From positions 1-35,233 of the IMG/VR virus record IMGVR_UViG_2529292998_000007: a DNA stretch of 35,233 nucleotides; one strand, given 5' to 3'. Within the stretch, counting starts at the first letter, position 1. The number at the start of each line of letters is the position of its first letter. Positions 1,363 through 31,344 of this stretch are shown here, in pieces. Origin of the DNA: a virus (lineage: Duplodnaviria; Heunggongvirae; Uroviricota; Caudoviricetes). The position numbers and the translations under genes were made by a program. Under the pieces are notes generated by a model. The model ran no database searches, was not told the origin of the DNA, and saw only the letters and a list, made by a program, of their open reading frames with translations.

Positions 1363-1446
1363 TTAATTTCGATTATTTTTCCCGGATGGAAAATTCTTAG
1401 AAACCGATCACATACAGCTGCATTTATTAAGGTTATCATCCGTTTC

Positions 1447-1533
1447 GCTGAAAAACATAACCCATAAAATGCTAGCTGTACCAGGAACCACCTCCTTAGC
1501 CTGTGTAATCTCCCTTACACGGGCTTATTTTTT
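1447..1533 (+). ncRNA. cyaR: CyaR (RyeE) Hfq-dependent small RNA
   Basis: Sequence GCTGAAAAACATAACCCATAAAATGCTAGCTGTACCAGGAACCACCTCCTTAGCCTGTGTAATCTCCCTTACACGGGCTTATTTTTT matches the E. coli CyaR sRNA from memory, including the terminal hairpin and U-tract; located directly downstream of yegQ as in K-12. Confidence 0.85.
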
Positions 1534-1534
1534 A
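1507..1534. repeat. attL core: 28-bp direct repeat AATCTCCCTTACACGGGCTTATTTTTTA overlapping the 3' end of cyaR
   Basis: The identical 28-mer recurs at 34731-34758 downstream of the integrase gene; the two copies bracket a complete P2-like gene set. Confidence 0.85.
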
Positions 1535-1602
1535 CGCGTAATACGATGAAATAAAAGGATTTATTTCTGGTCACGTCCACACATTGACCACATCGACAAA
1601 AA

Positions 1603-1622
1603 AGCCCCTCGACTGAGGGGCT
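1603..1622 (-). terminator. Rho-independent terminator downstream of ogr (hairpin AGCCCCTC-GACT-GAGGGGCT, A-run on + strand giving a U-run on the - strand)
   Basis: Perfect 8-bp GC-rich stem with 4-nt loop; on the minus strand it is followed by TTTTTTGTCG just after the ogr stop. Confidence 0.6.
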
Positions 1623-1634
1623 TTCTGTTTGTAA

Positions 1635-1853
1635 TTACATCCACATAATTTGCTGCCCTGACGGCAACGGGTGCGGCCTTACGGCGTGGACTTCTCCCGG
1701 CTTCACGATGTATCGCTGTACCGACTCATAAGTGATGAACGTGGCGCTGCAATTCACGTTCTGGCACTGGTGATAACGCTCTTTTGTCGTGTCAGTGATA
1801 TAGCGACTTGTACGCGCATGTGCGGCATGCTGGCATAAAGGACAATGAAACAT
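1635..1853 (-). CDS. ogr: Ogr/Delta-family zinc-finger late transcription activator
   Basis: MFHCPLCQHAAHARTSRYITDTT...CQNVNCSATF is the P2 Ogr C-x2-C...C-x4-C zinc finger; 72 codons from the internal Met. The six-frame ORF extends further 5' to 1916 but P2 Ogr starts at MFHCPLC. Confidence 0.88.
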   Translation of the reverse strand: MFHCPLCQHAAHARTSRYITDTTKERYHQCQNVNCSATFITYESVQRYIVKPGEVHAVRPHPLPSGQQIMWM

Positions 1854-1934
1854 CGCGAGCACCTCTTCCGGTTTTGTTGATGGTGCCATTTTAGTTAATT
1901 TATCCTTATAAAACAAACAGATAAATAATAAACA

Positions 1935-3098
1935 TCACTCATCATCTTCTGTTTCGTACTCCACATCAGAAAGCCTGACCTCAAGCTCTAAGGACGTCGT
2001 GAAGCCGCTATTATTCAGAAAATGTGTCACCTTAGTGATTGTCCAGTCCTGCTCGTCTATGACGCGCTTAAAGCCTGACACTTTAACCGGTGTTTCCGTG
2101 TAAATATCTGCCCGACCGGTAGCCAGGCTGATGGAGAACTCCGCGACGCCCCGTTGCAGTTTGTCCCACTTTGCCTGAGCGGCGCGCATGGCCTGCGCTT
2201 TTGTGGCATATACCGTAGTCAGGGCAAAAACGTTGTCAGCTTCACCGGCCATGTATTCACCTTCGCGCGCTTCCGGTACTTTTGGCGCTTTCTTCTGCGT
2301 GACCGGTTTCGCTTTCGGGTGCTCCAGTGCGCGCAGGTGTTTTTCTTTCTTTTTGCGTTTCAGTTTTACCTTCTGCTTTTGCGGCTTCGGGTCTTTGGTG
2401 TGTAACCACTTTGCCGTTACGCCGGTGTAAGCTCCACGGTCAGCAATCGCAAAATGATGACGGTCGCCGTCGCTGCGGGTGATGGTAATCTGCGGGATTT
2501 TTTTACCGCTGGCCGTCACCCCCTGCCCTGCTTTGAGAAACAGCAGTTTTCCCATTTTTACCGACACCTCGCCGCCGTTGCGTTCAGCAAGACGGGTCAG
2601 GAATTTCACATCAGACTCCTGCGACTGGTCGATGTGCGGGATTTTAATTCCGGCCAGTGACGGAGCGACACTGGCTTCCAGCCTGTTACGGGAGGCTATC
2701 GCCTCAACAATCGCACCGAGCGTGGTGTCATGCCAGGAGCCTTCCCGGCGGGAATTGAGCGTCCCACGAAAATCTGCACTCCGGGCACGGATGGTGACCA
2801 CATCCGGTGCGCCCCGGTGTTCAACCTCATCAACGGTAAATTTCCCTTTGCATACCAGGGCAAAACCTTTCCAGCCGATATACACCGTCAGGACAGCGCC
2901 ACGACCCGGCAGCCCGACCTGCCCGTCGGCATCGTTCAGTTCAATATCAAGCTGGTCAGCCTCAAAGCCCCGGTTATCCGTCAGGGTCATGCTCATCAGA
3001 CGGTCGCTGATATTGCCGGTAATATCCCTGCTGTCGAGCATCAGCATGTAATCCGGCGTCAGCGTACTGCCTGCATCAAATGTCAGCGCATCCAGCAT
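1935..3098 (-). CDS. D: Tail protein D (late control/tail assembly)
   Basis: 387 aa, same length as P2 gpD; positioned between ogr and U as in P2. Confidence 0.85.
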   Translation of the reverse strand: MLDALTFDAGSTLTPDYMLMLDSRDITGNISDRLMSMTLTDNRGFEADQLDIELNDADGQVGLPGRGAVLTVYIGWKGFALVCKGKFTVDEVEHRGAPDVVTIRARSADFRGTLNSRREGSWHDTTLGAIVEAIASRNRLEASVAPSLAGIKIPHIDQSQESDVKFLTRLAERNGGEVSVKMGKLLFLKAGQGVTASGKKIPQITITRSDGDRHHFAIADRGAYTGVTAKWLHTKDPKPQKQKVKLKRKKKEKHLRALEHPKAKPVTQKKAPKVPEAREGEYMAGEADNVFALTTVYATKAQAMRAAQAKWDKLQRGVAEFSISLATGRADIYTETPVKVSGFKRVIDEQDWTITKVTHFLNNSGFTTSLELEVRLSDVEYETEDDE

Positions 3099-3577
3099 TA
3101 TCCCGCCCCCGTCATACCCGTGAATCTGGTCGCCATACTGCCAGCCTTACCGATGAGCGATTCCGCCTGTTTACCGATATCGCCATAAAGCGCGGCCAGT
3201 GATTCATCAACGCGGGTGAGCGACAGCGTAAAATCAATTTTCCGGGGTGTGCCGTCTGCAAAGAAAATACTCCCTGTTTCACTCACCCTGCTGATGACAT
3301 ACATGCCGTAAATCATGCCGGTGCCATCCAGCAACGGCCACGCCCGACCTTCCTCTGCCATCAGCCTGAGCGTGGTCATCGTCAGCTTTCCGCCTGTCAG
3401 TTCGGGATAAAGCACACCGGCAAGCGTAATGTTTTCCTCACCCACACCGAGAAACTGAAAGGCATCCCGTTTACCGATACGGGAATTTGACGGCCAGCGA
3501 TAATCTGATTCACGCTGCATGGCCTGGTGTGGCAGCGTCTGGCGCATAAAAACAAACATACCTAACGCGAGCATCAT
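3098..3577 (-). CDS. U: Tail protein U
   Basis: 159 aa; its start overlaps the D stop; position and size match P2 gpU. Confidence 0.85.
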   Translation of the reverse strand: MMLALGMFVFMRQTLPHQAMQRESDYRWPSNSRIGKRDAFQFLGVGEENITLAGVLYPELTGGKLTMTTLRLMAEEGRAWPLLDGTGMIYGMYVISRVSETGSIFFADGTPRKIDFTLSLTRVDESLAALYGDIGKQAESLIGKAGSMATRFTGMTGAG

Positions 3578-3591
3578 TTTTCGTCACCTCC

Positions 3592-6039
3592 TTAACCGTC
3601 ATGCATCATGCTGGCACGGGCGCGCGCACGTTTATCCCGCTCGTATTTTTCGAGCGCATCCTGTAACTGGCGGTCAAGCTGTGTTCCCGGCGCAGTACCG
3701 CCCGTCAGGTTGATGTGATATTCGTTTTTACTCTGGTCCACATAAGAGCGACCAGCCGGTGCCGTGACCGGCTGATAAGCCTGATAGCCTGCATAAGAGC
3801 TGGTCGCCGGAATATAACCACCGGTGCCATACGTGGCGGCATGAGTCCTTGCGGCGGTCTGGTCAAGTGTGTCTGACTCTTTGTTGATAACACCGAGTTT
3901 TTCCAGTACCCAGTCAATACCGCTGCGCAGTTTGTTGAACGCATTAAGCGGCAGCATCAGCGCGTCAGCCAGTGCCTGCCCGAACATGACGCCCGTGTCA
4001 CGGCAACGGTTCAGGGTGTCCTGGGTGGCTTTGACCGGGGCAATCAGGTTTTTAAACCACTGCCACGCGGCCTGTAACTTTTCGCCCAGCCAGTCAAACA
4101 CCGGTTTCAGTGGCGTGAACAGCTCCCCCACCGGCGCAAATGCCGCTTTCAGCCCTTCAACCACACCGCCAAAGAATGCGCTGACAGGCTCCCAGTATTT
4201 ACGGATAAGCAACGCCCCGGCGACAATGGCGGCCACCACAGCCACAACCGGCCAGCTAATCGCCCCGATGGCCGTCATAACGGCACTACCAACCGTCGTG
4301 AAGATTGCCCCCATTGCGCCTGCTGCCGCGATGATGGCATTGATGCCGGTGATAACCGGCCAGGCTACAAGACCAATTGCACCGATGATGCCAGTAAGCG
4401 CCAGCGCACCACCGGCAATGAGGCCAATGGTTGACGCCAGTGATTTGTTTTTCTGTATCCAGCCGTCGAGTTTTAACACATACTTTGTGGCCGTCTGCGT
4501 GAGCTTACGTAGCGCGCCTTCCTGCTGGTCAAACAGGTCAGTCCCCACCGCCTCATAAGCGGACTGAAACTCCTTAAAGTCACCGCCGAGGTTGTCCTGC
4601 ATGATATTTACCAGCTCTGCGGTCTTTCCGTCTGAGGCTTTAAACGCAGCGGTCAGTTTGTCCAGCTTTCCGGTTGAGGCGGCAGTCATCAGCACGGCGG
4701 CGGCTGAACTGGCCTCCTCCCCGAAAATGGTTTTCATGTATTCAGCCTGCTGGGCAGTACCGAGCCGGTTTTTCTCAAAACTGGCCTGCATTTCTTTCAG
4801 AATGGTAAATACTGGTCGGGTGTTTCCCTTACCGTCTGAGGTTTTCACACCAAGCTCTTTGAGTGCATCCCATGCTTTTCCCGTCGGTGCCTGCAGGCGG
4901 CTTAACACGGCACGGCTTCCCGTCCCCGCCATTGAACCGGTAATTTTTGCATCATGCAGCGCTCCGACCATTGCGGCGGTTTCTTCAATGCTGACACCGG
5001 CATTTTTTGCCACAGGTGCGGCATAGGTCAGCGCATCGCTCATGCCGTCAAAATCGGCGGCGGTTTTGTTCATCGTCATGGAGAGAACATCCCCGATATG
5101 AGCGACCTTATCGTTTGAAAGCTGAAAGGCGGATTTCATCCCCATCAGCAGGGCGGCGTTTTCTTCCATCGTGCGGCGGTTCGCCAGTGCCATATTCAGC
5201 GTGACCGGCGTTGCCGCCTGAATGGCATCAACATCCCCACCGGCTTTCGCAATGATAATCTGTGCACCGGCTGCATCATCCGCCGAGGCGGCAGTATTGT
5301 CACCGAGCTGGCGCGCCTGCTTGCGGAGCGCGGTCATTTCGGCGGAGTCTTTTGCCACACCGAGCACGGCCTGCAATTCTGAGTTTTTCTGCGCAAACTC
5401 ATAACCGGGCATCAGCAGCTTAACACCGGCCATCGTTCCCGCCGCCGCAATCCCCACACCGGCAGCGCCCACCGAGGCCATATTTCCTGCCAGTTCCTTT
5501 CCGGCCTGATAACGCTGTTTGACTGCGTTAAGTTTGGCCTGTTGCGCACTGACACGCGCCAGCGCGTCACGCTGACGGTTAAGTTGTGCGGTGGTTTCAC
5601 TGATACAGTTTTTCAGTCCCTGCTCATCATGTGCAAGATTGCGGGTATTAATTCCCACAGCGGCCAGTTCCCGCTGCTGGCGTTTAACGGAATCTGTCAG
5701 GCGGTTATATTTCGCCTGTAAGTCCTCCGCCGCACGCTTTGCGGATTCCAGCACTTTCGCCTGAGCACGGGTCGGACGTTCGGTGTTTTTAAACTGTGTG
5801 GCAAGGGCTTCGGCCTCCTGCCGTGCCTTTTCAAGTGCATGACCAGTTACGGCAAGCTGTGCGCTGGTCTTACGGAATCCCTCAATACGGGATGCCTGAC
5901 CGTTCAGCTCGCGCAGTGATTTTTGTGTTTCCCGGATATCCCCCGACAGCGACTTGCTCGCTGTGCGGATGGATTTAAACGGGCGGGATGCCTGGTCAAC
6001 AGCCCTGAGCAATACCTGTAATTTTACATTGTTACTCAT
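3592..6039 (-). CDS. T: Tail tape measure protein T
   Basis: 815 aa; N-terminal coiled-coil, Ala/Gly-rich hydrophobic central segments typical of tape measure proteins; same length as P2 gpT. Confidence 0.9.
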   Translation of the reverse strand: MSNNVKLQVLLRAVDQASRPFKSIRTASKSLSGDIRETQKSLRELNGQASRIEGFRKTSAQLAVTGHALEKARQEAEALATQFKNTERPTRAQAKVLESAKRAAEDLQAKYNRLTDSVKRQQRELAAVGINTRNLAHDEQGLKNCISETTAQLNRQRDALARVSAQQAKLNAVKQRYQAGKELAGNMASVGAAGVGIAAAGTMAGVKLLMPGYEFAQKNSELQAVLGVAKDSAEMTALRKQARQLGDNTAASADDAAGAQIIIAKAGGDVDAIQAATPVTLNMALANRRTMEENAALLMGMKSAFQLSNDKVAHIGDVLSMTMNKTAADFDGMSDALTYAAPVAKNAGVSIEETAAMVGALHDAKITGSMAGTGSRAVLSRLQAPTGKAWDALKELGVKTSDGKGNTRPVFTILKEMQASFEKNRLGTAQQAEYMKTIFGEEASSAAAVLMTAASTGKLDKLTAAFKASDGKTAELVNIMQDNLGGDFKEFQSAYEAVGTDLFDQQEGALRKLTQTATKYVLKLDGWIQKNKSLASTIGLIAGGALALTGIIGAIGLVAWPVITGINAIIAAAGAMGAIFTTVGSAVMTAIGAISWPVVAVVAAIVAGALLIRKYWEPVSAFFGGVVEGLKAAFAPVGELFTPLKPVFDWLGEKLQAAWQWFKNLIAPVKATQDTLNRCRDTGVMFGQALADALMLPLNAFNKLRSGIDWVLEKLGVINKESDTLDQTAARTHAATYGTGGYIPATSSYAGYQAYQPVTAPAGRSYVDQSKNEYHINLTGGTAPGTQLDRQLQDALEKYERDKRARARASMMHDG

Positions 6040-21999: not shown

Positions 22000-23772
22000 A
22001 TGACCATCACCACAGACACCACTCTTTTACACGACCCGCGTCGTCAGGCGGCGCTGCTGTACTGGCAGGGGTTTTCCGTGCCGCAGATTGCCGCCATGTT
22101 GCAGATGAAACGCCCGACGGTGCAGAGCTGGAAACAGCGCGACGGCTGGGACAGTGTTGCCCCCATCAGCCGTGTCGAAATGAGCCTGGAAGCGCGGCTG
22201 ACCCAGCTCATCATCAAACCGCAGAAAACCGGCGGTGACTTCAAGGAAATTGACCTGCTGGGACGCCAGATTGAACGACTGGCACGGGTCAACCGTTACA
22301 GTCAGACCGGCAACGAGGCAGACCTTAATCCGAACGTCGCTAACCGCAACAAAGGCGGGCGTCGCAAACCGAAAAAGAATTTTTTCAGCGACGAAGCCAT
22401 CGAAAAGCTGGAGCAGATTTTCTTTGAGCAGTCTTTCGACTATCAGTTGCACTGGTATCGCGCCGGGCTTGAGCACCGCATCCGCGATATCCTGAAGTCC
22501 CGCCAGATTGGCGCGACGTTTTATTTTTCCCGCGAGGCGCTGCTGCGTGCCCTGAAAACCGGTCATAACCAGATTTTTCTGTCGGCCAGTAAAACGCAGG
22601 CGTATGTATTCCGTGAATACATCATCGCCTTTGCCCGTCTGGTTGACGTTGACCTGACCGGTGACCCGATTGTCCTGGGCAATAACGGCGCAAAACTGAT
22701 TTTTCTCGGCACCAACTCCAACACCGCACAGAGCCATAACGGCGACCTGTACGTCGATGAGATTTTCTGGATCCCGAATTTTCAGGTACTGCGTAAGGTG
22801 GCATCAGGTATGGCCTCACAGAGTCACCTGCGCTCGACCTATTTCTCCACCCCGTCCACGCTGGCGCACGACGCCTACCCGTTCTGGTCGGGTGAACTGT
22901 TCAACCGGGGACGCGCCAGCGCCGCCGAACGCGTGGAAATCGACGTCAGTCATAACGCCCTTGCCGGAGGTCTTCTTTGTGCGGACGGCCAGTGGCGGCA
23001 GATTGTCACCATTGAGGACGCGCTGAAAGGCGGCTGCACGCTGTTCGACATTGAGCAGCTCAAACGTGAAAACAGCGCCGACGATTTTAAAAACCTGTTC
23101 ATGTGTGAATTTGTTGACGACAAGGCATCGGTGTTCCCGTTCGAGGAGCTGCAACGCTGCATGGTCGACACGCTGGAAGAATGGGAAGACTATGCGCCGT
23201 TTGCCGCGAATCCGTTCGGCTCCCGCCCGGTCTGGATTGGTTACGACCCGTCACACCGTGGCGACAGTGCCGGATGCGTGGTGCTGGCACCGCCGGTGGT
23301 GGCCGGTGGCAAATTCAGAATACTTGAGCGTCACCAGTGGAAAGGCATGGACTTTGCCACCCAGGCGGAATCCATCCGCAAACTCACCGAAAAATACAAC
23401 GTCGAATACATTGGTATTGATGCCACCGGCCTCGGTGTCGGCGTGTTCCAGCTCGTGCGCTCGTTCTATCCCGCCGCGCGCGATATCCGCTACACGCCGG
23501 AAATGAAAACCGCAATGGTGCTCAAGGCAAAAGACGTCATCCGCCGTGGCTGTCTGGAATATGACGTCAGCGCCACCGACATCACCAGCTCGTTTATGGC
23601 TATCCGCAAGACCATGACCAGCAGCGGACGCAGCGCCACTTATGAGGCCAGCCGCAGCGAGGAAGCCAGCCACGCCGACCTCGCCTGGGCGACCATGCAC
23701 GCCCTGTTAAATGAGCCACTCACCGCCGGTATCAGCACCCCGCTGACATCCACCATTCTGGAGTTTTACTGA
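22000..23772 (+). CDS. P: Terminase ATPase (large) subunit P
   Basis: 590 codons from the MTITTDTTLLHDPRRQAALLYWQGF start, the P2 gpP length; divergent from O as in P2. Confidence 0.9.
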   Translation: MTITTDTTLLHDPRRQAALLYWQGFSVPQIAAMLQMKRPTVQSWKQRDGWDSVAPISRVEMSLEARLTQLIIKPQKTGGDFKEIDLLGRQIERLARVNRYSQTGNEADLNPNVANRNKGGRRKPKKNFFSDEAIEKLEQIFFEQSFDYQLHWYRAGLEHRIRDILKSRQIGATFYFSREALLRALKTGHNQIFLSASKTQAYVFREYIIAFARLVDVDLTGDPIVLGNNGAKLIFLGTNSNTAQSHNGDLYVDEIFWIPNFQVLRKVASGMASQSHLRSTYFSTPSTLAHDAYPFWSGELFNRGRASAAERVEIDVSHNALAGGLLCADGQWRQIVTIEDALKGGCTLFDIEQLKRENSADDFKNLFMCEFVDDKASVFPFEELQRCMVDTLEEWEDYAPFAANPFGSRPVWIGYDPSHRGDSAGCVVLAPPVVAGGKFRILERHQWKGMDFATQAESIRKLTEKYNVEYIGIDATGLGVGVFQLVRSFYPAARDIRYTPEMKTAMVLKAKDVIRRGCLEYDVSATDITSSFMAIRKTMTSSGRSATYEASRSEEASHADLAWATMHALLNEPLTAGISTPLTSTILEFY

Positions 23773-24806
23773 TGAGCAAGAAAAAAGGGAAAACACCGCA
23801 GCCAGCGGTGAAAACAATGACCGCCAGCGCCCCGAAAATGGAAGCATTCACCTTTGGTGAGCCGGTGCCGGTACTCGACCGCCGTGACATTCTGGATTAC
23901 GTCGAGTGCATCAGTAACGGCAGATGGTATGAGCCACCGGTCAGCTTTACCGGTCTGGCAAAAAGCCTGCGTGCTGCCGTGCATCACAGCTCCCCGATTT
24001 ACGTCAAACGCAATATTCTGGCCTCGACATTTATCCCGCATCCGTGGCTTTCCCAGCAGGATTTCAGCCGCTTTGTGCTGGATTTTCTGGTGTTCGGTAA
24101 TGCGTTTCTGGAAAAGCGTTACAGCACCACCGGTAAGGTCATCAGACTGGAAACCTCACCGGCAAAATATACCCGCCGTGGCGTGGAGGAGGATGTTTAC
24201 TGGTGGGTGCCTTCCTTCAACGAGCCGACACCTTTCGCGCCCGGCTCCGTGTTTCACCTGCTGGAGCCGGATATTAATCAGGAGCTGTACGGCCTGCCGG
24301 AATATCTCAGCGCCCTTAACTCTGCCTGGCTGAATGAGTCGGCCACGCTGTTCCGCCGCAAGTATTACGAAAATGGCGCACATGCCGGATACATCATGTA
24401 CGTCACCGATGCCGTGCAGGATCGCAATGATATCGAAATGCTTCGCGAAAACATGGTGAAGTCGAAAGGCCGCAACAACTTTAAAAACCTGTTTCTCTAT
24501 GCCCCGCAGGGGAAAGCTGACGGCATTAAAATTATCCCGCTCAGTGAAGTGGCAACGAAGGACGATTTTTTTAATATCAAAAAAGCCAGCGCCGCTGACC
24601 TGCTGGACGCGCACCGCATCCCCTTTCAGTTGATGGGCGGCAAGCCGGAGAACGTCGGGTCACTGGGCGATATTGAGAAAGTGGCAAAGGTCTTTGTCCG
24701 CAATGAACTTATCCCGTTACAGGACAGGATCCGCGAGATAAACGGCTGGCTCGGTCAGGAGGTCATCCGCTTTAAAAACTACTCACTGGACACTGACAAC
24801 GACTGA
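23772..24806 (+). CDS. Q: Portal (capsid vertex) protein Q
   Basis: 344 aa; position and size match P2 gpQ. Confidence 0.9.
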   Translation: MSKKKGKTPQPAVKTMTASAPKMEAFTFGEPVPVLDRRDILDYVECISNGRWYEPPVSFTGLAKSLRAAVHHSSPIYVKRNILASTFIPHPWLSQQDFSRFVLDFLVFGNAFLEKRYSTTGKVIRLETSPAKYTRRGVEEDVYWWVPSFNEPTPFAPGSVFHLLEPDINQELYGLPEYLSALNSAWLNESATLFRRKYYENGAHAGYIMYVTDAVQDRNDIEMLRENMVKSKGRNNFKNLFLYAPQGKADGIKIIPLSEVATKDDFFNIKKASAADLLDAHRIPFQLMGGKPENVGSLGDIEKVAKVFVRNELIPLQDRIREINGWLGQEVIRFKNYSLDTDND

Positions 24807-24994: not shown

Positions 24995-25093
24995 CGCCCG
25001 CTTCGTGGGGCGGTTTTAATGCAGTTGCAGTTTTCTCCAAACAGCTTACCACCTCTGGACTTGCCCCGATTCAAAAACAAGCTGATATAAATG

Positions 25094-25123
25094 CAAAACC
25101 ATGCATGGTTATGCATGGTTTTG
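25094..25123 (-). terminator. Hairpin (13-bp stem CAAAACCATGCAT / ATGCATGGTTTTG, loop GGTT) just downstream of the ATPase gene stop
   Basis: Perfect inverted repeat read directly; T-containing tract on the minus strand after the stem; separates the cargo cassette from cos. Confidence 0.5.
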
Positions 25124-25127
25124 GTTG

Positions 25128-27065
25128 TTAGTTCAATAAATCTTTATCAAGAGCGGTATAATTTATCTTTAATGATTTATCATCTGGATTAAAATACCGA
25201 CCAACAATCAAATCGGTATTTTCATATTCTGGATTAATCTCCGATGTCGCATAAATTATTTGAAAATCATATTGATATGATTGAGTTTCTTGTACTATTA
25301 TTTTCTGCAGATTGTGACTGCGCTCTTTCTCCATTCCACCATCGTCAATTCCATCAAGCATTAGGAAACGAGGTAATCTCATGTATTTTTTTTCAATACT
25401 TGCAGTTAACAATGCTAAATGAAAGAGATGTCTTAATACAACTGCTGAACTTTCTGAAAAATACTTAGACCCATTTACATAAACAGTATTATCGGCAAAG
25501 CTAAAATTAACTTTTCTAGGATCAATAAATTCAGTCTGCAATGGAAGATCTTTTTTAAGAAGTCTTTTCATAATGTTTTCTATAGTTTTAGAAATATCCT
25601 TCTTCCTATATTCCTCTTTACTCTCCAAAGATTCAATTAAAGAGGACAATCTCTCCTTCTCTGACTGCAGACTATCACGATCTTTTTGCAAATCAGATAT
25701 TACATCACTAAGTTTTTGTAATTCACAAGCCTGTTTAATTTCTTCTTCAACACGTCCCAGAGCCTTAGTAAGAGTTTCAAACTCTATTTCATAGGCATTT
25801 TCCCAAACCTTAGAGACTTCTTCATATTCACGAATTAAATCTCGCACTTTTTGCTTTAAAGCAGGAGATTGGCTCTTAAGCTCTCTCAGTTTTACATAAT
25901 TATGCTCAAGAAGATCTCTGGATTCTTTTAATTGGATAGAAATCTCATTTTTCATCCTTAATAATTGAGGAGCATCACTACCCTCTGGCGCGTGATTTTT
26001 ACATAATGAGCACTCATTTTCAGAGGAAATATTCAACTCACTTAAACAACTGGGACAAAATTGAAATTTAACGTTGCTAAAATAGTCTCTGGCAATACTT
26101 GATTCATTAAGAGAGCGCAATCTGGATTCTAACTCATTAATGAACATTTCAGAGTCAGCTATCTCCATTTCTAACATATGGATACTGTCAATATTTTTTA
26201 CTTCTTCTTCCTTCGCTTTATTTAAATTTTTTCGAAGGTTGTTAGTTTTAGTTTTATCAGCATTTTTATCATTAACAGAAGAGTTATTACTCTCTTTGAG
26301 AGAGATAAGCTCGCCATTGATCTTTTCTTTCTTCTCTCTTAGCTCTTTTATTTTATCGTCAATAAAACTTACATGCTGCGATTGCCCAGAGCGTCCAAGA
26401 ACTTTAAATATGCTTTTCAGCTCAACAATTTTTGTCGAAAGTTCAGCATCAACCTGTTTAAGCCTAATCAAAGAGCTATAAAGTTTGTCATCAAATATAC
26501 CACATAAATAATCACCAATAGTCTCTCGTGTTAGAGCTCTATCAAAATTATCGTTCCTAAATATAGGACTATGAAGAGATGGCTGATCTGCATATAATAC
26601 ACGTAGGATTTGATGCATTGTTAAAATTGAAGCACCCTCTCCTTGAGCTAGAGGCATATCTAAAGCATTTAGAATTACCTGAGAAAAACTCAGTGATTTT
26701 TCTGAACGCTTAAAAGGATAAGTTTGCCACTGACTCGGTGATGAGTTAAGAGCTTTATCCATCGAGCCCCAAAAAATACTCAACGGTCGCATGGATTCTG
26801 AACTTATCTCCCGCTTAAAACAGGCAAGATTATTATTCAAAAGCACTTCAACCATGGTAAATGAACATAAAAGAGCTGTTGGTTTCAAGCTAATATTTTC
26901 AGCACCAAGTGAAAATGCTAAAAGATCCATAACAGTAGTTTTGCCAGAGCTATTTCGCCCCCTTATTACATTTACCCCTTTATGGAAAACACAGCTAAAT
27001 GCTTCATGCCCAGCTTGGAAAACTTTTAATTTACTAACAAAAAAAGATGGATTAAGAATAGTCAT
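25128..27065 (-). CDS. Rad50/SbcC/RloC-like ABC-type ATPase with central zinc-hook-like CxxC-x13-CxxC motif; last gene of the cargo cassette
   Basis: 645 aa; Walker A GRNSSGKTT at residues 35-43; long Lys/Glu-rich heptad-like segments flanking CPSC...CSLC at residues 337-355; C-terminal hydrophobic stretch ending in Asp (RFLMLDGIDDGG) consistent with Walker B; AT-rich. Confidence 0.7.
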   Translation of the reverse strand: MTILNPSFFVSKLKVFQAGHEAFSCVFHKGVNVIRGRNSSGKTTVMDLLAFSLGAENISLKPTALLCSFTMVEVLLNNNLACFKREISSESMRPLSIFWGSMDKALNSSPSQWQTYPFKRSEKSLSFSQVILNALDMPLAQGEGASILTMHQILRVLYADQPSLHSPIFRNDNFDRALTRETIGDYLCGIFDDKLYSSLIRLKQVDAELSTKIVELKSIFKVLGRSGQSQHVSFIDDKIKELREKKEKINGELISLKESNNSSVNDKNADKTKTNNLRKNLNKAKEEEVKNIDSIHMLEMEIADSEMFINELESRLRSLNESSIARDYFSNVKFQFCPSCLSELNISSENECSLCKNHAPEGSDAPQLLRMKNEISIQLKESRDLLEHNYVKLRELKSQSPALKQKVRDLIREYEEVSKVWENAYEIEFETLTKALGRVEEEIKQACELQKLSDVISDLQKDRDSLQSEKERLSSLIESLESKEEYRKKDISKTIENIMKRLLKKDLPLQTEFIDPRKVNFSFADNTVYVNGSKYFSESSAVVLRHLFHLALLTASIEKKYMRLPRFLMLDGIDDGGMEKERSHNLQKIIVQETQSYQYDFQIIYATSEINPEYENTDLIVGRYFNPDDKSLKINYTALDKDLLN

Positions 27066-27552
27066 ATCTAAACTCCATTAACTTCGTTCTATCTTTTAAA
27101 CCATCTTTTCCAACCAAATGGAATTTAGATAGTGTGTCTATGATAAATGTATTAATAGTTTTATTCGTATTAATAAAATTATTAATAGAAAGTAATAAGC
27201 CATCTGGAACAGACTTATCTGTTCTCTTTATAATGTTTTTCTCAAGACAATCCATCTCAACCAACCCAGTAGCTGCAAGACATCTTATTGCTGCCATTTG
27301 AATTTCATACATATCTCTGAATGTAGATGTAACATTAATAGGATCCCGATATATATTAGAATACTTCTTCGCTTCTTTCTTCATTGAAGAATAATTATGA
27401 GGCATTCTAATTTCAGATACCAAAGCAGGAAATAGCAGATAGAAGTCCAAAATCCTAGCCTTATCTACCTCAATTTCATTTACATGGTCTATAAGAGCAA
27501 TCATTCTGAATAAACAATGATATGCATCATATGCTGGATGGTAAATTAGCAT
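27052..27552 (-). CDS. Hypothetical 166-aa protein, third gene of the cargo cassette
   Basis: ORF overlapping both neighbours (by 7 bp upstream, 14 bp downstream), suggesting translational coupling; AT-rich; no recognisable motif. Confidence 0.55.
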   Translation of the reverse strand: MLIYHPAYDAYHCLFRMIALIDHVNEIEVDKARILDFYLLFPALVSEIRMPHNYSSMKKEAKKYSNIYRDPINVTSTFRDMYEIQMAAIRCLAATGLVEMDCLEKNIIKRTDKSVPDGLLLSINNFINTNKTINTFIIDTLSKFHLVGKDGLKDRTKLMEFRYDYS

Positions 27553-28109
27553 TTATCCCACCTTATATGGCAATTGCCACCCAGAAAAAATAGTAATCCC
27601 AAGAGATCTTTTGCTGTTAGCTCTAGCAAGTTCTCTCCCAAAGACGAATATAATTCATCAATTATTGAAGCGATTTTCTCATCAACAATCACTCTGGAGC
27701 TATCCGCTTCTATAAGTGGTGTTACTTTCGTTATAAAATCAAAATGAATTTGATCTAAAATTATTACAAATATTCTTTGTGCAGTTTTTGACGTCTGGCG
27801 ACGCATTATGGCTTTTGTCGCTTTTTCCTTCATCTGCTTAGCTAAAAACAACAAATCTTTTCTATTACTCTCGAGTAATTTAGCGTCTAACCCCCGAACA
27901 TCAATATCAGGCTGAAGGGACATATAATGCTCTAGTTCAGCACAAAACCCCGGAACCGCTTCCCCTATATCACCTCTCTTCAAACACTCATAAAGTTTCT
28001 GTATCTCCCTGTTAGTTCCTTTAACAGGATAATTGAATATATGATTAGTCTGATCACCAGAAATTATGTTGCCATTTGTTACGGTATTTCCTGACTGTTC
28101 GATAGACAC
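27546..28109 (-). CDS. Hypothetical 187-aa protein, second gene of the cargo cassette (Gly/Asn/Thr-rich N-terminus)
   Basis: ORF in the same operon-like arrangement; its N-terminus QSGNTVTNGNIISGDQTNH resembles the C-terminus of the upstream 63-aa ORF. Confidence 0.55.
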   Translation of the reverse strand: MSIEQSGNTVTNGNIISGDQTNHIFNYPVKGTNREIQKLYECLKRGDIGEAVPGFCAELEHYMSLQPDIDVRGLDAKLLESNRKDLLFLAKQMKEKATKAIMRRQTSKTAQRIFVIILDQIHFDFITKVTPLIEADSSRVIVDEKIASIIDELYSSLGENLLELTAKDLLGLLFFLGGNCHIRWDKC

Positions 28110-28120
28110 ACCAACACCTC

Positions 28121-28312
28121 TTAATGTGACCTATCCTGATTACCGCCAACAATACTTCCATTTGTAACACTGTTACCAGTTTGAGTAACTGTATGATTGT
28201 TTGAGTTCACGCTGGAATTACCAATTTGCTTTCTAGATGAAAACACGACACGAATCGACCAACCAGCTCCCAGTCCGACAAAGAAAGTGATGATATGTGT
28301 AATCCACTCCAT
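28121..28312 (-). CDS. Hypothetical 63-aa small membrane protein, first gene of the cargo cassette
   Basis: N-terminal hydrophobic helix (WITHIITFFVGLGAGWSIRVVF) followed by an Asn/Ser/Thr/Gly-rich tail; 12 bp upstream of the next ORF; could alternatively be a remnant of a duplicated 5' end. Confidence 0.4.
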   Translation of the reverse strand: MEWITHIITFFVGLGAGWSIRVVFSSRKQIGNSSVNSNNHTVTQTGNSVTNGSIVGGNQDRSH

Positions 28313-28814
28313 TCTTGTATCCTTAGCATAAATTTTTGTACTCTTATAATAAATCGAATACTTTCTATCTACAACTAAGGAACATCAACTAGTTATGTAA
28401 TGCAAATCACATACTCTCGATGTAACCACTGACAGACAAAACACAGATACTGCCGTTATAATTGCCAACGTTACTATTTAAACAATAATTCGTAGGATTC
28501 TATTGCTTTGCTTAGTGGTATATGACCACTGACAGCACGAATGATATACCCAATCCTAATTACAACGAATTAAACTAAGGCTCGCATATAACTCTATCAT
28601 TCTCTATTTCTCAGCAACCTCAAAAACTGTATAAAAACACAGTACCACATAACCACCAAAACAGGGAAGCAAAAAATTAAAGCCCTATTAACTGAATACT
28701 CTTGGTAACACTAATCGGTTTTACGATCTAAAAAATACAAAAACCGAGAATTGATTCAACACTTTGTTTTTTATATAAAAAGATACATTTTAGTACATTT
28801 AATACACTATTTGA

Positions 28815-31079
28815 TTAAAAACCAAACTGCTTATCAACAAGCTGATATGTGAATTTTTTTTCGCCATATACCAATGTCGCTCCACGCGCCAGCGCCTCAA
28901 GTTCCCATCGCTGCGGCCTGATACCGTTCTGAGCAAGGTCAACGCGGATACGGGTGATTTGCATTCGTTCTGACCGGGTCAGTCTGGCCGATGGCGCTAT
29001 TTCATGTGGTTTTAACGGTTTTCCGTTTCTTTGCTGACGGTTTGGTCTTCTCAGGCCGTGTTTTAATGCGCTTCTGAGCGCCCTCACGACCTCCGGGTCA
29101 TTCCATTCGATAACACCGTCATCAACCAGATTAAGCACTGCTGCGGCGTGTTCAGAAGGTGTGGGAGCCGGTAACGAAGCATCACTGCTGGCAGGCTTTC
29201 CACAGTTATTGACAGGACTCCGAGGCGCGGCGATGCCGCTTTTTAAAGTCAAAGGCTCAACGACCGGCACTTTCGGAACAATGCGCCAGTCCGTCGTTCT
29301 GGTGATATGAATATGACGCGCGCCGAGATGCGGCGCGTAAATGCCGACCACTCTCTCGACTTCTTCCTCGTACTCGTTAACTTCATCCGACGGACTACGG
29401 GCAACCCTGACAGTCTGACAATCGCGCGGGACATTTGCCCCGCCCTGCGCGCTGATATACAGCGCAAAATCACCACTGTCTGCGGCGGCGCGTGCAGCCT
29501 CCACGCGTTCGTCAAATTCATCAGCAATGCTGACGCCGCGAGGCAATTTACGTAGCTCACGGTAAGCTCCCATTGTCGGCAGGCCAACCGTTTTAAATTG
29601 CGGGATGCGCCACGTTGACGCCCATGCGGTAACAGCCGCCGCAGTATCTTTCAGCGGTCTGCCGGTATCGTTATCGAGCTGACCGTCCAGTGCATAGCCG
29701 TCGATATTTTTTGAAATGTATTTCGCGATATATCCCGCAGCACCGCCCCGGTTAAGGTGTTTTGCCTGAAAACGGTTTCGCGCGGCTCCTCTTTCGTCGC
29801 CATCCTCTTTGAGCGCATAGCGACGCATGATTTCGATAATCTGGTTACGCTGGCGTTGATTACAAAAAAGCATCATATGCCAGTGCGGCGTTCCGTCGTG
29901 GTGTGGCTCGACGACTCGCAAACCGTAGACCTGTAAATCATTATCCTTGAATGCCGTGCGCATCAGGCTCCAGATACGGCAGAGATAACGCTGCGCATCC
30001 TTTGGATTAAATGCCTCATCGTTCCAGCCGTGATTAAGCTGGACGGTTTTACTTTCGCCTTTTCCGACCTGACGTGTCGGGTGATACTTTGACGGCGCGG
30101 TCAGCGTGATAAACATGCCCACATCGCCCTCTGCGGCGGCGTAACGCTCAATACCGGCAATGGTGTTCATCAGCTCCATCCGGCGAATTTCAGGATTAGA
30201 AATACTGCCCATCACCTTACTGATAAGGTCGATGCGCTCGCCGGTTTCCCTGTTTTCAAGGTCACACGATTTAAGAAATTCCAGATTTGCCTGGCGGCGT
30301 GCACGCACATCACGAATGGCATGTTTACTGGCATAAGGAGAACGGTCTTTATTCACCTCCCCGACAGCAATCAGTAACGCCTCATGCCAGCGCATACGCT
30401 GGCCTTTGAGCTGATGAGTCCACCACTCATCGTTAAACAGACGGGCAATTGCAGAATATGCCTGCCTCGTGGTCATCTGTCCTTTACGATATTTTTTCCA
30501 GTAAAGCGGGGAAATATTGAAAGCACGTGCAGCGCCAGCAACATGACCATACAGATGCGCCTGCGCCTCATCCGTAAACAGCGATTCTTTTTCGCCATGC
30601 GCATCCACCCAGGCATCGCAGAGTTCCTCATACATCATGAAAAGCTGCGATGAGATACGGGCGGCAAACTTTTTCAGCTCCTTGTCATTCATTCCCGGCA
30701 GGCGCGCATACTGGTCGCGCTCTGCCAGAAACAGCAACGACGCGTCGGTGTTCATTTCATGGCGCTGATTCACGCGCTCAATGCGCGGCCATAAACGACG
30801 CTGAAAAGTGGATGTGAGGAAATAAAACCCGTGCACCGGGCTTTTATTGCGCCGGATGTAGTCATAGCGTGAAGTAAACAGCGAGCGCAAAAAGTAAGGC
30901 AGGCGGTTAATCGTGGATAAAACACCTTGCACCTGACGCATCTCGTCACGTGTAAGGGGTCTTTCGCGCCCGACGGCCTCGCGTGGCGCGTTCCATGCAT
31001 AAGCACCGGTAAACGCCTTACCAGTGCCTGCAGCAAATGCTGACGGAGGGACAAAACGCCCGGAGGCTTTAACGGCCAT
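28815..31079 (-). CDS. A: Replication initiation protein A (rolling-circle nicking enzyme)
   Basis: Conserved P2 gpA motifs (HHDGTPHWHMMLF, GAAGYIAKYISKNIDGY with the catalytic Tyr region); start placed at MAVKASGRF, with the six-frame ORF extending 14 codons upstream to 31121. Confidence 0.9.
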   Translation of the reverse strand: MAVKASGRFVPPSAFAAGTGKAFTGAYAWNAPREAVGRERPLTRDEMRQVQGVLSTINRLPYFLRSLFTSRYDYIRRNKSPVHGFYFLTSTFQRRLWPRIERVNQRHEMNTDASLLFLAERDQYARLPGMNDKELKKFAARISSQLFMMYEELCDAWVDAHGEKESLFTDEAQAHLYGHVAGAARAFNISPLYWKKYRKGQMTTRQAYSAIARLFNDEWWTHQLKGQRMRWHEALLIAVGEVNKDRSPYASKHAIRDVRARRQANLEFLKSCDLENRETGERIDLISKVMGSISNPEIRRMELMNTIAGIERYAAAEGDVGMFITLTAPSKYHPTRQVGKGESKTVQLNHGWNDEAFNPKDAQRYLCRIWSLMRTAFKDNDLQVYGLRVVEPHHDGTPHWHMMLFCNQRQRNQIIEIMRRYALKEDGDERGAARNRFQAKHLNRGGAAGYIAKYISKNIDGYALDGQLDNDTGRPLKDTAAAVTAWASTWRIPQFKTVGLPTMGAYRELRKLPRGVSIADEFDERVEAARAAADSGDFALYISAQGGANVPRDCQTVRVARSPSDEVNEYEEEVERVVGIYAPHLGARHIHITRTTDWRIVPKVPVVEPLTLKSGIAAPRSPVNNCGKPASSDASLPAPTPSEHAAAVLNLVDDGVIEWNDPEVVRALRSALKHGLRRPNRQQRNGKPLKPHEIAPSARLTRSERMQITRIRVDLAQNGIRPQRWELEALARGATLVYGEKKFTYQLVDKQFGF

Positions 31080-31344
31080 ATGAGCCAAAAGCCTCTGAAC
31101 AACGCTTGCTGAGTTGCTCAACCTGCGCGTTTAAATCAGCAAAAGACTTTGCGCTTCCGGTCAGAATATCGTGATGCATCAGGCCGGAAACGAGCTGGCT
31201 TAATTTCGGGTAATAACCAACCACCGCCAGCCATTCCTGACCGGCGTTTTTACCGCTTTCCGCTCTCTTTTTCTCGTGGAGAATAAACTGAAAGCTGTCA
31301 CTGGTAACGACATAACGTTCGCCAATTTCAATACGAATACTCAT
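31069..31344 (-). CDS. Hypothetical early protein (P2 orf83-like position)
   Basis: 91-aa ORF in the early operon immediately upstream of A. Confidence 0.55.
   Translation of the reverse strand: MSIRIEIGERYVVTSDSFQFILHEKKRAESGKNAGQEWLAVVGYYPKLSQLVSGLMHHDILTGSAKSFADLNAQVEQLSKRCSEAFGSYGR

What the first reader, a model, noticed from the sequence alone, without database searches (positions are those of the whole stretch)
26001..26057. Complete four-cysteine zinc-hook-like motif (CPSC-x13-CSLC) at the midpoint of the coiled-coil ATPase
Verified by direct translation of the minus strand (C P S C L S E L N I S S E N E C S L C). Residues 337-355 of the 645-aa protein sit almost exactly at the centre, between two long heptad-like segments. 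Rad50 uses a single CxxC per monomer and needs dimerisation to complete the site, whereas the anticodon nuclease RloC carries a full CxxC...CxxC hook in one chain; this protein resembles the latter design but lacks any RloC-like nuclease domain.
Basis: seen in the sequence. Interest (0 to 1): 0.5.

Follow-up and report, generated by a model that had tools for sequence, protein, structure and literature searches.

The report
Double-CxxC zinc hook of Lamassu LmuB
The four-cysteine motif is real and strictly conserved, but it is the tip of the coiled-coil arm of LmuB, the SMC/Rad50-like sensor of a Lamassu (ABC-3C) anti-phage system carried by a P2-like prophage, and LmuB variants with two CxxC motifs have already been catalogued.

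Summary
The motif exists at 26001-26057 (minus strand) as residues 337-355 of the 645-aa ORF 25128-27065. The spacing is CPSC-x11-CSLC, not x13. It is not chance: 261 of 262 full-length homologues (28-100% identity) keep C-P-x-C ... C-x-[LV]-C, and 96% have an 11-13 residue linker.

The protein is a short LmuB. Evidence: PADLOC LmuB E=4.5e-47; the AF2 model's best Foldseek matches are solved LmuB chains (E=1e-15), then Rad50. It follows an LmuC (Pfam MC5) and an effector-domain-less LmuA (Pfam CTD9) in an AT-rich cassette in the P2 gpQ/gpA defence hotspot.

AF2 places the motif between an ascending helical arm (193-318) and a descending one (365-509). The apex location is therefore supported.

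Published work (PNAS 2025) already records short LmuBs with zero, one or two CxxC copies. The solved LmuBs whose hook is described have none or one. The RloC analogy fails, because the RloC papers describe a single CX2C.

My best reading, which is inferred, is an intrachain C4 zinc-ribbon-like cap that forms the apical docking and dimerisation platform.

In passing, a conserved 50-70 aa membrane mini-protein upstream shares a co-evolving motif with the LmuA N-terminus. It may be the missing effector.

The parts
26001..26057 (-). Four-cysteine motif CPSC-x11-CSLC, LmuB residues 337-355: two CxxC knuckles
   Evidence: Direct translation. The four Cys, the Pro and the [LV] are invariant or nearly so in 261/262 homologues.
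25920..26156 (-). Conserved apex module of LmuB, about residues 304-382: DS..F..EL..R...L.ES...R.YF....F.FCPxC...CxLC...Q.LRM.NE...Q.KES
   Evidence: Invariant and near-invariant columns in alignments A1 and A2. AF2 predicts a non-helical segment 319-364 with isolated beta bridges at 336, 343, 351 and 358, at pLDDT 48-59.
25128..27065 (-). LmuB: SMC/Rad50-like ABC ATPase of a short Lamassu / ABC-3C system, 645 aa
   Evidence: PADLOC LmuB E=4.5e-47. Pfam AAA_23 and SMC_N. Foldseek top hits are solved LmuB chains 9hqu, 9hqx, 9uxh, 9nyg and 9ux7. RefSeq annotates it 'AAA family ATPase'.
26112..26489 (-). Ascending coiled-coil arm, residues 193-318, with helix breaks at 227-234 and 260-268
   Evidence: AF2 secondary structure.
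25539..25973 (-). Descending coiled-coil arm, residues 365-509, with a break at 422-423
   Evidence: AF2 secondary structure. The apex fragment model is a helical hairpin.
26937..26960 (-). Walker A motif GRNSSGKT, residues 36-43
   Evidence: Regex on the translation. Invariant in A1.
25350..25367 (-). Deviant Walker B motif FLMLD-G, residues 567-572, with Gly where ABC ATPases have the catalytic Glu
   Evidence: L570, D571 and G572 through E579 are invariant in A1. The same LDGIDDGG occurs in distant loci.
27052..27552 (-). LmuC, the ABC-3C middle component 5, 166 aa. Its end overlaps the LmuB start by 14 nt.
   Evidence: Pfam PF20291 MC5 E=1.1e-52. RefSeq annotation.
27546..28109 (-). LmuA-like protein of 187 aa: CTD9 domain at 73-184 and only a short N-terminal region, with no enzymatic effector domain
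   Evidence: Pfam PF20285 CTD9 E=2.4e-29. 114 homologues, mostly about 181-195 aa (range 125-223), all annotated with CTD9 only.
28050..28094 (-). N-terminal G/N/D-rich motif of LmuA, SGNTVTNGNIISGDQ, residues 6-20
   Evidence: Conserved across LmuA homologues. It mirrors the C-terminus of the upstream mini-protein.
28121..28312 (-). 63-aa mini-protein with an N-terminal hydrophobic segment that reads as one transmembrane helix, plus a C-terminal motif. It is the first gene of the cassette.
   Evidence: ORF list. Annotated as a hypothetical protein. An identical protein is called on 732 contigs. A syntenic 50-72 aa ORF is present in 28 related loci examined.
28136..28177 (-). C-terminal motif GNSVTNGSIVGGNQ of the mini-protein, residues 46-59, paired with the LmuA N-terminal motif
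   Evidence: Cognate pairs score 55 against 38 for non-cognate pairs (permutation p about 5e-5). Shuffled controls score 19 +/- 4.5.
25094..25123 (.). Perfect 13-bp-stem palindromic hairpin 5 nt after the LmuB stop codon, likely the cassette terminator
   Evidence: Terminator-like scan.
25000..29000 (.). AT-rich cassette (30-39% GC) between P2 portal gene Q (23772-24806, +) and replication gene A (28815-31121, -)
   Evidence: Composition profile: flanks are 52-59% GC. ORF and RefSeq annotation. This is the P2 old/tin defence hotspot (PMC9122126).

Best explanation
The motif is the apical zinc-binding element of LmuB, the SMC/Rad50-like sensor ATPase of a short Lamassu (ABC-3C) abortive-infection system. 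The system is carried as a cargo cassette in the gpQ/gpA hotspot of a P2-like prophage.

Shown: the protein is an LmuB; the motif lies at the turn between the ascending and descending helical arms; four Cys, one Pro and one Leu/Val are essentially invariant across the clade; and the two knuckles are held 11-13 residues apart.

Inferred: the first knuckle (CPxC) is the ancestral Rad50/LmuB hook and the second (Cx[LV]C) is a clade-specific addition. Together they chelate one Zn within a single chain, as a small zinc-ribbon-like C4 knuckle-hairpin-knuckle that staples the turn of the coiled coil.

By analogy with solved LmuACB complexes, this rigid apex would pair with the apex of the second LmuB. 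It would also form the platform where LmuC (MC5) and the LmuA C-terminal domain (CTD9) are held in the resting state. DNA-end sensing by the heads would then release LmuA. On this reading, dimerisation would not depend on a shared metal ion as it does in Rad50.
For: Family:
- PADLOC LmuB E=4.5e-47.
- Adjacent genes are MC5 and CTD9.
- RefSeq annotates the neighbours as ABC-three component system proteins.
- The AF2 model (pLDDT 78.5) matches solved LmuB chains best: 9hqu_A E=1.4e-15, plus 9hqx, 9uxh, 9nyg and 9ux7. Rad50 and SMC heads come next.

Position:
- Helices 193-318 and 365-509 flank a non-helical stretch 319-364.
- The fragment model is a helical hairpin, and the Rad50 hook 1l8d ranks second with TM 0.57-0.61.

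Conservation: 261/262 homologues keep both knuckles, and 96% have an 11-13 residue linker.

Zinc-ribbon-like character:
- The narrow linker length.
- A hydrophobic residue at +1 and +4 after knuckle 1.
- AF2 beta bridges flank each knuckle at 336, 343, 351 and 358.
- Sub-threshold Pfam hits of the 42-aa apex peptide to Double zinc ribbon families DZR and DZR_2 (E=0.005 and 0.007).
- A weak profile hit aligns knuckle 1 with the first knuckle of the C4 zinc ribbon that follows the coiled coil of MSMEG_4306 (5y05, E=3e-4).

Functional precedent:
- The LmuB zinc hook is required for phage defence in the Salmonella system, and LmuA and LmuC sit next to the hooks.
- The hooks of two protomers are juxtaposed in BcLmuB.
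- The literature states that short LmuBs have 0, 1 or 2 CxxC copies and 'may employ divergent dimerization strategies'.
Against: - The apex has low confidence in both AF2 runs (pLDDT 48-59).
- No coordinates were available, so Cys-Cys distances could not be measured.
- All zinc-ribbon sequence hits fall below curated thresholds.
- A profile of the apex alone finds nothing significant in the PDB, and Foldseek on the fragment gives no significant match.
- None of the solved LmuBs whose hook is described in the papers read has two CxxC, so the intrachain arrangement is untested.
- One homologue (P0254) has lost the second knuckle while keeping CPLC. The first knuckle may therefore work alone, as a classical interchain hook.
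- Metal binding itself has not been demonstrated for any LmuB: the density was too weak in both cryo-EM studies.
Confidence: 0.55

Rival explanations
1. Interchain double hook. The two CxxC pairs do not share a metal within one chain. Instead each Zn is ligated by one pair from each LmuB protomer, giving two Zn ions at the dimer interface, a reinforced version of the Rad50 hook.
For: Every characterised hook in this superfamily is interchain. [quoted passage not shown] The first knuckle matches the canonical CPxC hook. Homologue P0254 keeps only the first knuckle.
Against: The tightly constrained 11-13 residue linker and the beta bridges flanking each knuckle in the AF2 monomer fit a compact single-chain unit. 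The weak sequence resemblances are to single-chain zinc ribbons. None of this is decisive.
Confidence: 0.27
2. One reading: an RloC-like self-contained four-Cys hook in a stand-alone coiled-coil ATPase that has lost its nuclease.
For: The protein is a Rad50-like ATPase with a coiled-coil insert in a defence context and no nuclease domain.
Against: RloC is described with a single CX2C. The protein scores as LmuB, not as a member of any RloC, PrrC or Rad50 family. It is encoded with LmuC and LmuA partners in every locus examined. Its closest structures are LmuB chains.
Confidence: 0.03
3. The cysteines are not a metal site. They would form disulfides or a redox-sensitive switch, or be conserved for some other packing reason.
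For: Zn has not been seen directly in any LmuB structure.
Against: Paired CxxC knuckles with a CPxC signature and 11-13 residue spacing in a cytoplasmic protein are the classical signature of structural Zn(Cys)4 sites (established knowledge). Homologous hooks in Rad50 bind Zn.
Confidence: 0.05

Closest known systems
Short Lamassu LmuB with two CxxC copies, catalogued by Haudiquet et al., PNAS 2025 (PMC12663957); ABC-3C ABC ATPase of Krishnan et al. 2020
   Same: ABC head with Walker A and a deviant Walker B. Coiled coil of about 300 residues and total length about 640 aa. Apical CxxC motifs. Operon with LmuC (middle component) and LmuA (C-terminal docking domain). Location in a defence hotspot.
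   Different: Nothing essential: this is a member. Walker B is hhhhD-G rather than the hhhhD[Q/S/T/E] quoted for short Lamassu. The two-CxxC form has no solved structure or biochemistry among the LmuB papers read.
Salmonella enterica LmuACB (9HQU, 9HQX) and Bacillus cellulasensis LmuAB: structurally solved LmuBs with a zinc hook
   Same: Best structural matches to the AF2 model (E=1e-15 to 1e-10). The hook lies at the distal end of a kinked coiled coil. LmuA and LmuC dock near the hook, and the hook is needed for defence.
   Different: Only 13-16% sequence identity. BcLmuB has one canonical CxxC per chain (285CQYC288); the Salmonella hook motif was not inspected here. The window protein has a roughly 46-residue apex with two knuckles. 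Its LmuA has no nuclease domain.
Rad50/SbcC zinc hook (for example 1L8D)
   Same: A CPxC-type knuckle at the apex of an antiparallel coiled coil that emerges from an ABC head. The fragment model resembles the hook hairpin (TM 0.57-0.61).
   Different: Rad50 has one CxxC per chain and completes the Zn site only in a dimer. Its coiled coils are much longer and it has an Mre11/SbcD partner, which is absent here. NCBIfam Rad50 models score 14-21 bits against cut-offs of 700-1087.
RloC anticodon nuclease
   Same: A defence-related ABC ATPase with a coiled-coil/zinc-hook insert.
   Different: RloC has a single CX2C and a C-terminal anticodon-nuclease domain in the same chain. The window protein has neither feature.
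Amyloid-signalling gene pairs: Bell/NLR with BASS motifs, and Bab/Agp in E. coli. This concerns the side observation only.
   Same: A small membrane-directed protein carries at its C-terminus a short G/N/Q/D-rich motif. The motif is repeated at the N-terminus of the protein encoded by the adjacent gene, and it co-varies within loci.
   Different: The partner is a Lamassu LmuA adaptor, not an NLR. The motif is shorter, at about 14-16 aa. The effector is a single predicted transmembrane helix rather than a Bell domain. No amyloid property has been tested.

Membership tests
Lamassu LmuB (ABC-3C ABC ATPase) | Sequence match to LmuB profile models | tested here: met
   Eleven PADLOC LmuB models match with E<1e-5, the best being PDLC03862 at E=4.5e-47 over residues 6-573.
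Lamassu LmuB (ABC-3C ABC ATPase) | Split ABC head (Walker A, signature, Walker B) with an inserted antiparallel coiled coil | tested here: met
   Walker A is GRNSSGKT and Walker B is FLMLD. The invariant FSESS at 536-540 is a signature-like motif. AF2 predicts helices 193-318 and 365-509 between the head halves.
Lamassu LmuB (ABC-3C ABC ATPase) | Fold closest to experimentally solved LmuB | tested here: met
   Seven of the ten best Foldseek pdb hits are entries named Lamassu/Lmu (9hqu, 9hqx, 9uxh, 9nyg, 9ux7), with E=1.4e-15 to 7.6e-10. Rank 2 is 9a6c, a YydD-YydB model, and Rad50 begins at rank 8.
Lamassu LmuB (ABC-3C ABC ATPase) | Operon partners LmuC (middle component) and LmuA (protein with a Lamassu C-terminal docking domain) | tested here: met
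   Pfam MC5 E=1e-52 and CTD9 E=2e-29 in the two genes immediately upstream. The same order is seen in all related loci.
Lamassu LmuB (ABC-3C ABC ATPase) | Deviant Walker B lacking the catalytic Glu | tested here: met
   Invariant D571-G572. The residue is Gly rather than the Q/S/T/E reported for short Lamassu.
Lamassu LmuB (ABC-3C ABC ATPase) | Confers phage or plasmid defence | not testable with these tools
   Context only: the P2 gpQ/gpA defence hotspot. A 'Lamassu missing a known effector' from a P4 hotspot gave no protection against 28 phages in one study.
Rad50/SbcC | Full-length match to Rad50/SbcC equivalog models, and an adjacent Mre11/SbcD nuclease | tested here: not met
   NCBIfam Rad50 models score 14-21 bits against cut-offs of 700-1087. 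No Mre11/SbcD-like gene lies in the cassette.
Rad50/SbcC | Single CxxC per chain at the coiled-coil apex | tested here: not met
   Two CxxC per chain, conserved in 261/262 homologues.
RloC anticodon nuclease | C-terminal anticodon-nuclease domain fused to the Rad50-like ATPase | tested here: not met
   The protein ends about 35 residues after the C-terminal head half. No further domain appears in Pfam, NCBIfam or PADLOC.
   The RloC papers describe one CX2C motif. No RloC sequence was examined directly.
C4 zinc ribbon fold | Two CxxC knuckles, each in a beta hairpin, that jointly bind one Zn | tested here: inconclusive
   The spacing, the flanking beta bridges and the sub-threshold DZR/DZR_2 hits fit. 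However, apex pLDDT is 48-59, no coordinates were available, and there is no significant PDB match.
Amyloid-signalling pair, BASS-like (side observation) | The same short motif at the C-terminus of an effector protein and the N-terminus of the adjacent gene's product | tested here: met
   The pairing was inspected in 23 loci and scored in 16 of them: cognate pairs score 55, non-cognate 38, and shuffled controls 19.
Amyloid-signalling pair, BASS-like (side observation) | The motif forms a transmissible cross-beta fold | not testable with these tools
The motif is shorter than my recollection of about 20 residues for BASS motifs; that length was not checked in the papers read.

The most novel reading that the evidence does not exclude
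In this Lamassu clade the apex has become a self-contained Zn(Cys)4 module, a docking platform rather than a metal-shared dimeriser. The 'missing' effector is the conserved 50-70 aa membrane mini-protein encoded first in the operon. On this reading, release and oligomerisation of LmuA (CTD9) would cluster its N-terminal G/N/D-rich motif. That cluster would then template or recruit the matching C-terminal motif of the mini-protein and drive membrane damage. This would be an amyloid-like or homotypic-motif relay, so far described for NLR-type sensors, operating in an SMC-based immune system.
Probability: 0.3. Interest if true: 0.75.

Novelty: already known. Interest (0 to 1): 0.3.

Why it matters
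The finding itself adds little to what is known. LmuB zinc hooks are described, and LmuBs with two CxxC copies are already catalogued.

It is still useful in one respect. It identifies a large, sharply defined clade: hundreds of 50%-identity clusters carrying C-P-x-C-x11-13-C-x-L-C. No structure exists for this form of the hook. The clade could show whether SMC-like immune sensors need a metal-shared dimer at all.

The more consequential lead lies upstream in the same operon. This clade's LmuA has no effector domain, and published work calls that a loss. Every locus I examined nonetheless encodes a membrane mini-protein whose C-terminal motif co-evolves with the LmuA N-terminus. If that mini-protein is the effector, it would explain how 'effector-less' Lamassu systems kill cells. 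It would also link SMC-based sensing to motif-templated effector activation.

Tried and rejected
1. phmmer of the protein against PDB sequences gave only an SMC head at E=0.05. A profile of 53 homologues gave only coiled-coil noise plus a weak hit to MSMEG_4306. Solved LmuBs are too divergent for sequence search and were reached only by fold comparison.
2. A profile of the apex alone against the PDB gave nothing significant, only Cys-pattern resemblance to RING halves at E>2.
3. Foldseek on the apex fragment model gave no hit with E<0.3. Generic helical hairpins dominate the list and the Rad50 hook ranks second. This supports only the hairpin topology.
4. Measuring Cys-Cys distances was not possible. 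The structure tool returns no coordinates and no model file appears in /data. Both AF2 runs give apex pLDDT 48-59, and a dimer cannot be predicted with the tool.
5. The original ABC-3C paper (Krishnan et al. 2020, PMC7544218) is not held. What it says about hooks is taken second-hand from PMC10586767.
6. The supplements of the PNAS 2025 and NAR 2026 papers are not held. I could not confirm that this system belongs to 'Clade O', or that the tested P4 'Lamassu variant' is the same subtype.
7. PADLOC does not recognise the MC5, CTD9 or mini-protein genes, so automated tools would call only an orphan LmuB here.
8. I considered Rad50/SbcC and RloC membership and rejected both.
9. I considered that the mini-ORF might be spurious and rejected that. 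It is syntenic and conserved in loci whose LmuB is only 37-39% identical.
Full report
**1. The observation**

The minus strand of 26001-26057 translates to CPSCLSELNISSENECSLC. This is residues 337-355 of a 645-aa ORF at 25128..27065(-). The spacing is x11, not x13.

The protein holds only 9 Cys, and four of them fall within these 19 residues. About 3e-4 chance occurrences of C..C-x10-20-C..C are expected in a protein of this size and composition.

Conservation settles the matter:
- All 120 homologues at 52-100% identity carry both pairs.
- So do 141 of 142 full-length representatives of 50%-identity clusters, down to 28% identity.
- The consensus is F-x-[FY]-C-P-x-C-[LFY]-x2-[LIV]-x7-9-C-x-[LV]-C-[KT].
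- The linker sequence is free, but its length is 11-13 residues in 250 of 261 sequences.
- The motif centre lies at 0.54 of the protein length (sd 0.006).

**2. What the protein is**

Sequence evidence:
- Pfam gives only generic AAA_23/SMC_N hits.
- PADLOC LmuB models match strongly, with a best E=4.5e-47 over residues 6-573.
- NCBIfam Rad50, SMC and related models score far below their cut-offs.

Context evidence:
- The two genes immediately upstream on the same strand are an ABC-3C middle component 5 (PF20291, E=1e-52) and a protein with the ABC-3C C-terminal domain 9 (PF20285, E=2e-29).
- RefSeq annotates the same genes in 19 complete E. coli genomes as AAA family ATPase, ABC-three component system middle component 5 and ABC-three component system protein.

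Structural evidence:
- An AF2 model built on 53 homologues has mean pLDDT 78.5.
- Its best Foldseek matches in the PDB are solved LmuB chains: Salmonella LmuACB 9hqu/9hqx at E=1e-15, type II Lamassu 9uxh, Vibrio LmuABC 9nyg, and LmuAB 9ux7.
- Rad50, SMC and JetC heads follow.

The protein is therefore a short LmuB of a Lamassu/ABC-3C system.

**3. Genomic setting**

The cassette from 25.0 to 29.0 kb is 30-39% GC, against 52-59% in the flanks. It sits between the P2-type portal gene (23772-24806) and the replication endonuclease gene A (28815-31121). This is the old/tin locus of P2, described as a hotspot of anti-phage systems (PMC9122126). A perfect 13-bp-stem hairpin follows the LmuB stop codon.

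**4. Where the motif sits**

AF2 predicts the N-terminal head half up to about residue 190. An ascending helical arm covers 193-318, with breaks at 227-234 and 260-268. A non-helical stretch covers 319-364. A descending arm covers 365-509, with a break at 422-423. The C-terminal head half follows.

The four Cys lie in the non-helical stretch. Isolated beta bridges are predicted just before and after each knuckle, at 336, 343, 351 and 358. A second model of residues 290-400 reproduces the helical hairpin and the same bridges.

The apex itself has low confidence in both runs (pLDDT 48-59). No coordinates are returned. The apex location is therefore supported, but the mutual geometry of the four Cys is not established.

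The flanks are conserved as well: DS..F..EL..R...L.ES...R.YF....F.F before the first knuckle and Q.LRM.NE...Q.KES after the second. The unit is thus a module of about 70-80 residues, not a bare loop.

**5. What is already known**

- In the Salmonella system the hook is required for defence. The hooks of the two protomers are juxtaposed, and LmuA and LmuC sit next to them. Zn density could not be resolved (bioRxiv 2025.03.14.643221).
- BcLmuB has one canonical hook, 285CQYC288.
- Vibrio DdmC has none.
- Haudiquet et al. state that long LmuBs have one CxxC, while short LmuBs have zero, one or two. They suggest divergent dimerisation strategies (PMC12663957).

The two-CxxC state is therefore catalogued. 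I found no structure or biochemistry for it.

Both RloC papers describe a single CX2C in a central loop.

**6. How it most likely works**

Shown: family, position, conservation and constrained spacing.

Inferred: the first knuckle (CPxC) corresponds to the ancestral hook, and the second (Cx[LV]C) is a clade-specific addition. The two probably bind one Zn within a chain, as a zinc-ribbon-like unit. The arguments are:
- the narrow linker length;
- the hydrophobic positions after knuckle 1;
- the AF2 beta bridges;
- sub-threshold hits of the apex peptide to Double zinc ribbon families (E=0.005-0.007);
- a weak profile alignment of knuckle 1 to the first knuckle of the C4 ribbon of MSMEG_4306 (E=3e-4).

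None of these is strong. The main rival is a double interchain hook with two shared Zn ions, and it is not excluded. One homologue (P0254) has kept only the first knuckle.

By analogy with the solved complexes, the apex would be the place where the second LmuB, LmuC (MC5) and the LmuA CTD9 are held in the resting state. In those complexes DNA-end sensing releases LmuA. I give the intrachain reading about 0.55 and the interchain reading about 0.27.

**7. Other features of this LmuB**

Walker A is canonical. Walker B is FLMLD-G with an invariant Gly, within an invariant LDGIDDGGME. The position of the usual H-loop His reads ATSE. My reading that ATSE occupies the H-loop position comes from inspecting the sequence. 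This is further from a catalytic site than the D[Q/S/T/E] quoted for short Lamassu. It suggests ATP binding with little or no hydrolysis.

**8. Side observation: a candidate for the missing effector**

The LmuA here is 187 aa, with CTD9 at 73-184 and no enzymatic domain. The 114 homologues found are mostly about 181-195 aa (range 125-223), and all are annotated with CTD9 only. [quoted passage not shown] I could not confirm that it is the same clade, because the supplements are not held.

Immediately upstream lies a 63-aa ORF (28121-28312). It has an N-terminal hydrophobic segment that I read as a transmembrane helix, followed by basic residues.

A syntenic 50-72 aa ORF of this kind is present in 28 related loci, counting near-duplicate contigs. 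These span Escherichia, Proteus, Phytobacter, Erwinia, Pseudomonas, Burkholderia, Paraburkholderia, Duganella, Massilia, Comamonas, Methylibium, Roseateles and Acinetobacter. Some of these loci have an LmuB only 37-39% identical to the query.

The C-terminus of this mini-protein carries a G/N/D-rich motif that mirrors the N-terminal motif of the LmuA encoded next to it:

| Locus | Mini-protein C-terminus | LmuA N-terminus |
|---|---|---|
| window | GNSVTNGSIVGGNQ | GNTVTNGNIISGDQ |
| L009 | SGNKVGGHMSGRDVNV | SGNTVLGHMGGRDVNV |
| L022 | GSIVGRDQ | GSIVGRDQ |
| L032 | VGRDDNS | VGRDDNS |

Over 16 loci, cognate pairs score 55 on average and non-cognate pairs 38 (permutation p about 5e-5). Shuffled LmuA N-termini score 19 +/- 4.5. 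The permutation test treats the 16 loci as independent, although some are closely related.

If the two motifs diverged independently after an old duplication, cognate pairs would be no more alike than non-cognate ones. The pattern therefore indicates co-evolution.

The genomic logic matches that used to define amyloid-signalling pairs: an effector C-terminus plus the N-terminus of the adjacent sensor. I found no paper linking this to Lamassu.

Whether the motif templates a cross-beta fold, or simply mediates a homotypic contact, cannot be tested here. A 'Lamassu missing a known effector' from a P4 hotspot gave no protection against 28 phages in one study. Whether that construct included a mini-ORF is unknown.

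**9. Verdict**

The structural placement is right. The RloC analogy is wrong.

The feature belongs to a known family in which it has already been catalogued. The finding itself is therefore of low novelty and modest interest. It does mark a well-defined clade in which the role of the hook could be tested.

The more novel lead is the paired motif between the membrane mini-protein and LmuA in the same operon.

Noticed in passing
window 28121-28312 (-) and 28050-28094 (-); also L002 2757-2936, L004 2771-2950, L006 2738-2950, L008 3806-3997, L009 3807-4004, L010 128-280, and L011-L032 at about 2240-2460: A conserved 50-72 aa ORF precedes LmuA in every related locus examined. It has an N-terminal hydrophobic segment that reads as a transmembrane helix. 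Its C-terminal G/N/D-rich motif mirrors the N-terminal motif of the cognate LmuA and co-varies with it (cognate 55, non-cognate 38, shuffled 19; p about 5e-5). It may be the missing effector of this 'effector-less' Lamassu clade, coupled by a homotypic or amyloid-like motif.
   Followed up: partly
window 25350-25367 (-), LmuB residues 567-579, and residues 606-609: Walker B is FLMLD-G with an invariant Gly in place of the catalytic Glu, within an invariant LDGIDDGGME. The usual H-loop His position reads ATSE. This is more degenerate than the hhhhD[Q/S/T/E] reported for short Lamassu, and it suggests an ATPase that binds ATP but does not hydrolyse it.
   Followed up: partly
window 25000-29000: The four-gene cassette is 30-39% GC inside a 52-59% GC P2-like prophage. 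It lies exactly between portal gene Q and replication gene A, the P2 old/tin hotspot. Only 19 of 5426 complete E. coli genomes carry the full cassette, whereas the flanking P2 sequence matches in more than 2000.
   Followed up: yes
window 25094-25123: A perfect palindromic hairpin with a 13-bp stem (CAAAACCATGCAT GGTT ATGCATGGTTTTG) lies 5 nt after the LmuB stop codon. It is probably a terminator at the cassette boundary.
   Followed up: no
E. coli Z142-6 record NZ_CP159690.1 (hit H2): A separate 4,312-bp record in one assembly consists almost entirely of this cassette (positions 104-4099, 99.4% identity). The chromosome of the same strain also carries it. This is either an assembly artefact or an excised circular copy.
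   Followed up: no
window 27546-27552 and 27052-27065: The LmuA/LmuC coding regions overlap by 7 nt and the LmuC/LmuB regions by 14 nt. The same overlaps recur in distant loci (for example L002 and L004: 3514-3520 and 4001-4014). This suggests translational coupling and fixed stoichiometry.
   Followed up: no
L008 5039-6100 (Comamonas aquatica): In this locus the LmuB gene is cut to 353 aa by an IS (DDE_Tnp_1) insertion, which removes the apex and the C-terminal head. The mini-protein, LmuA and LmuC genes remain intact.
   Followed up: no
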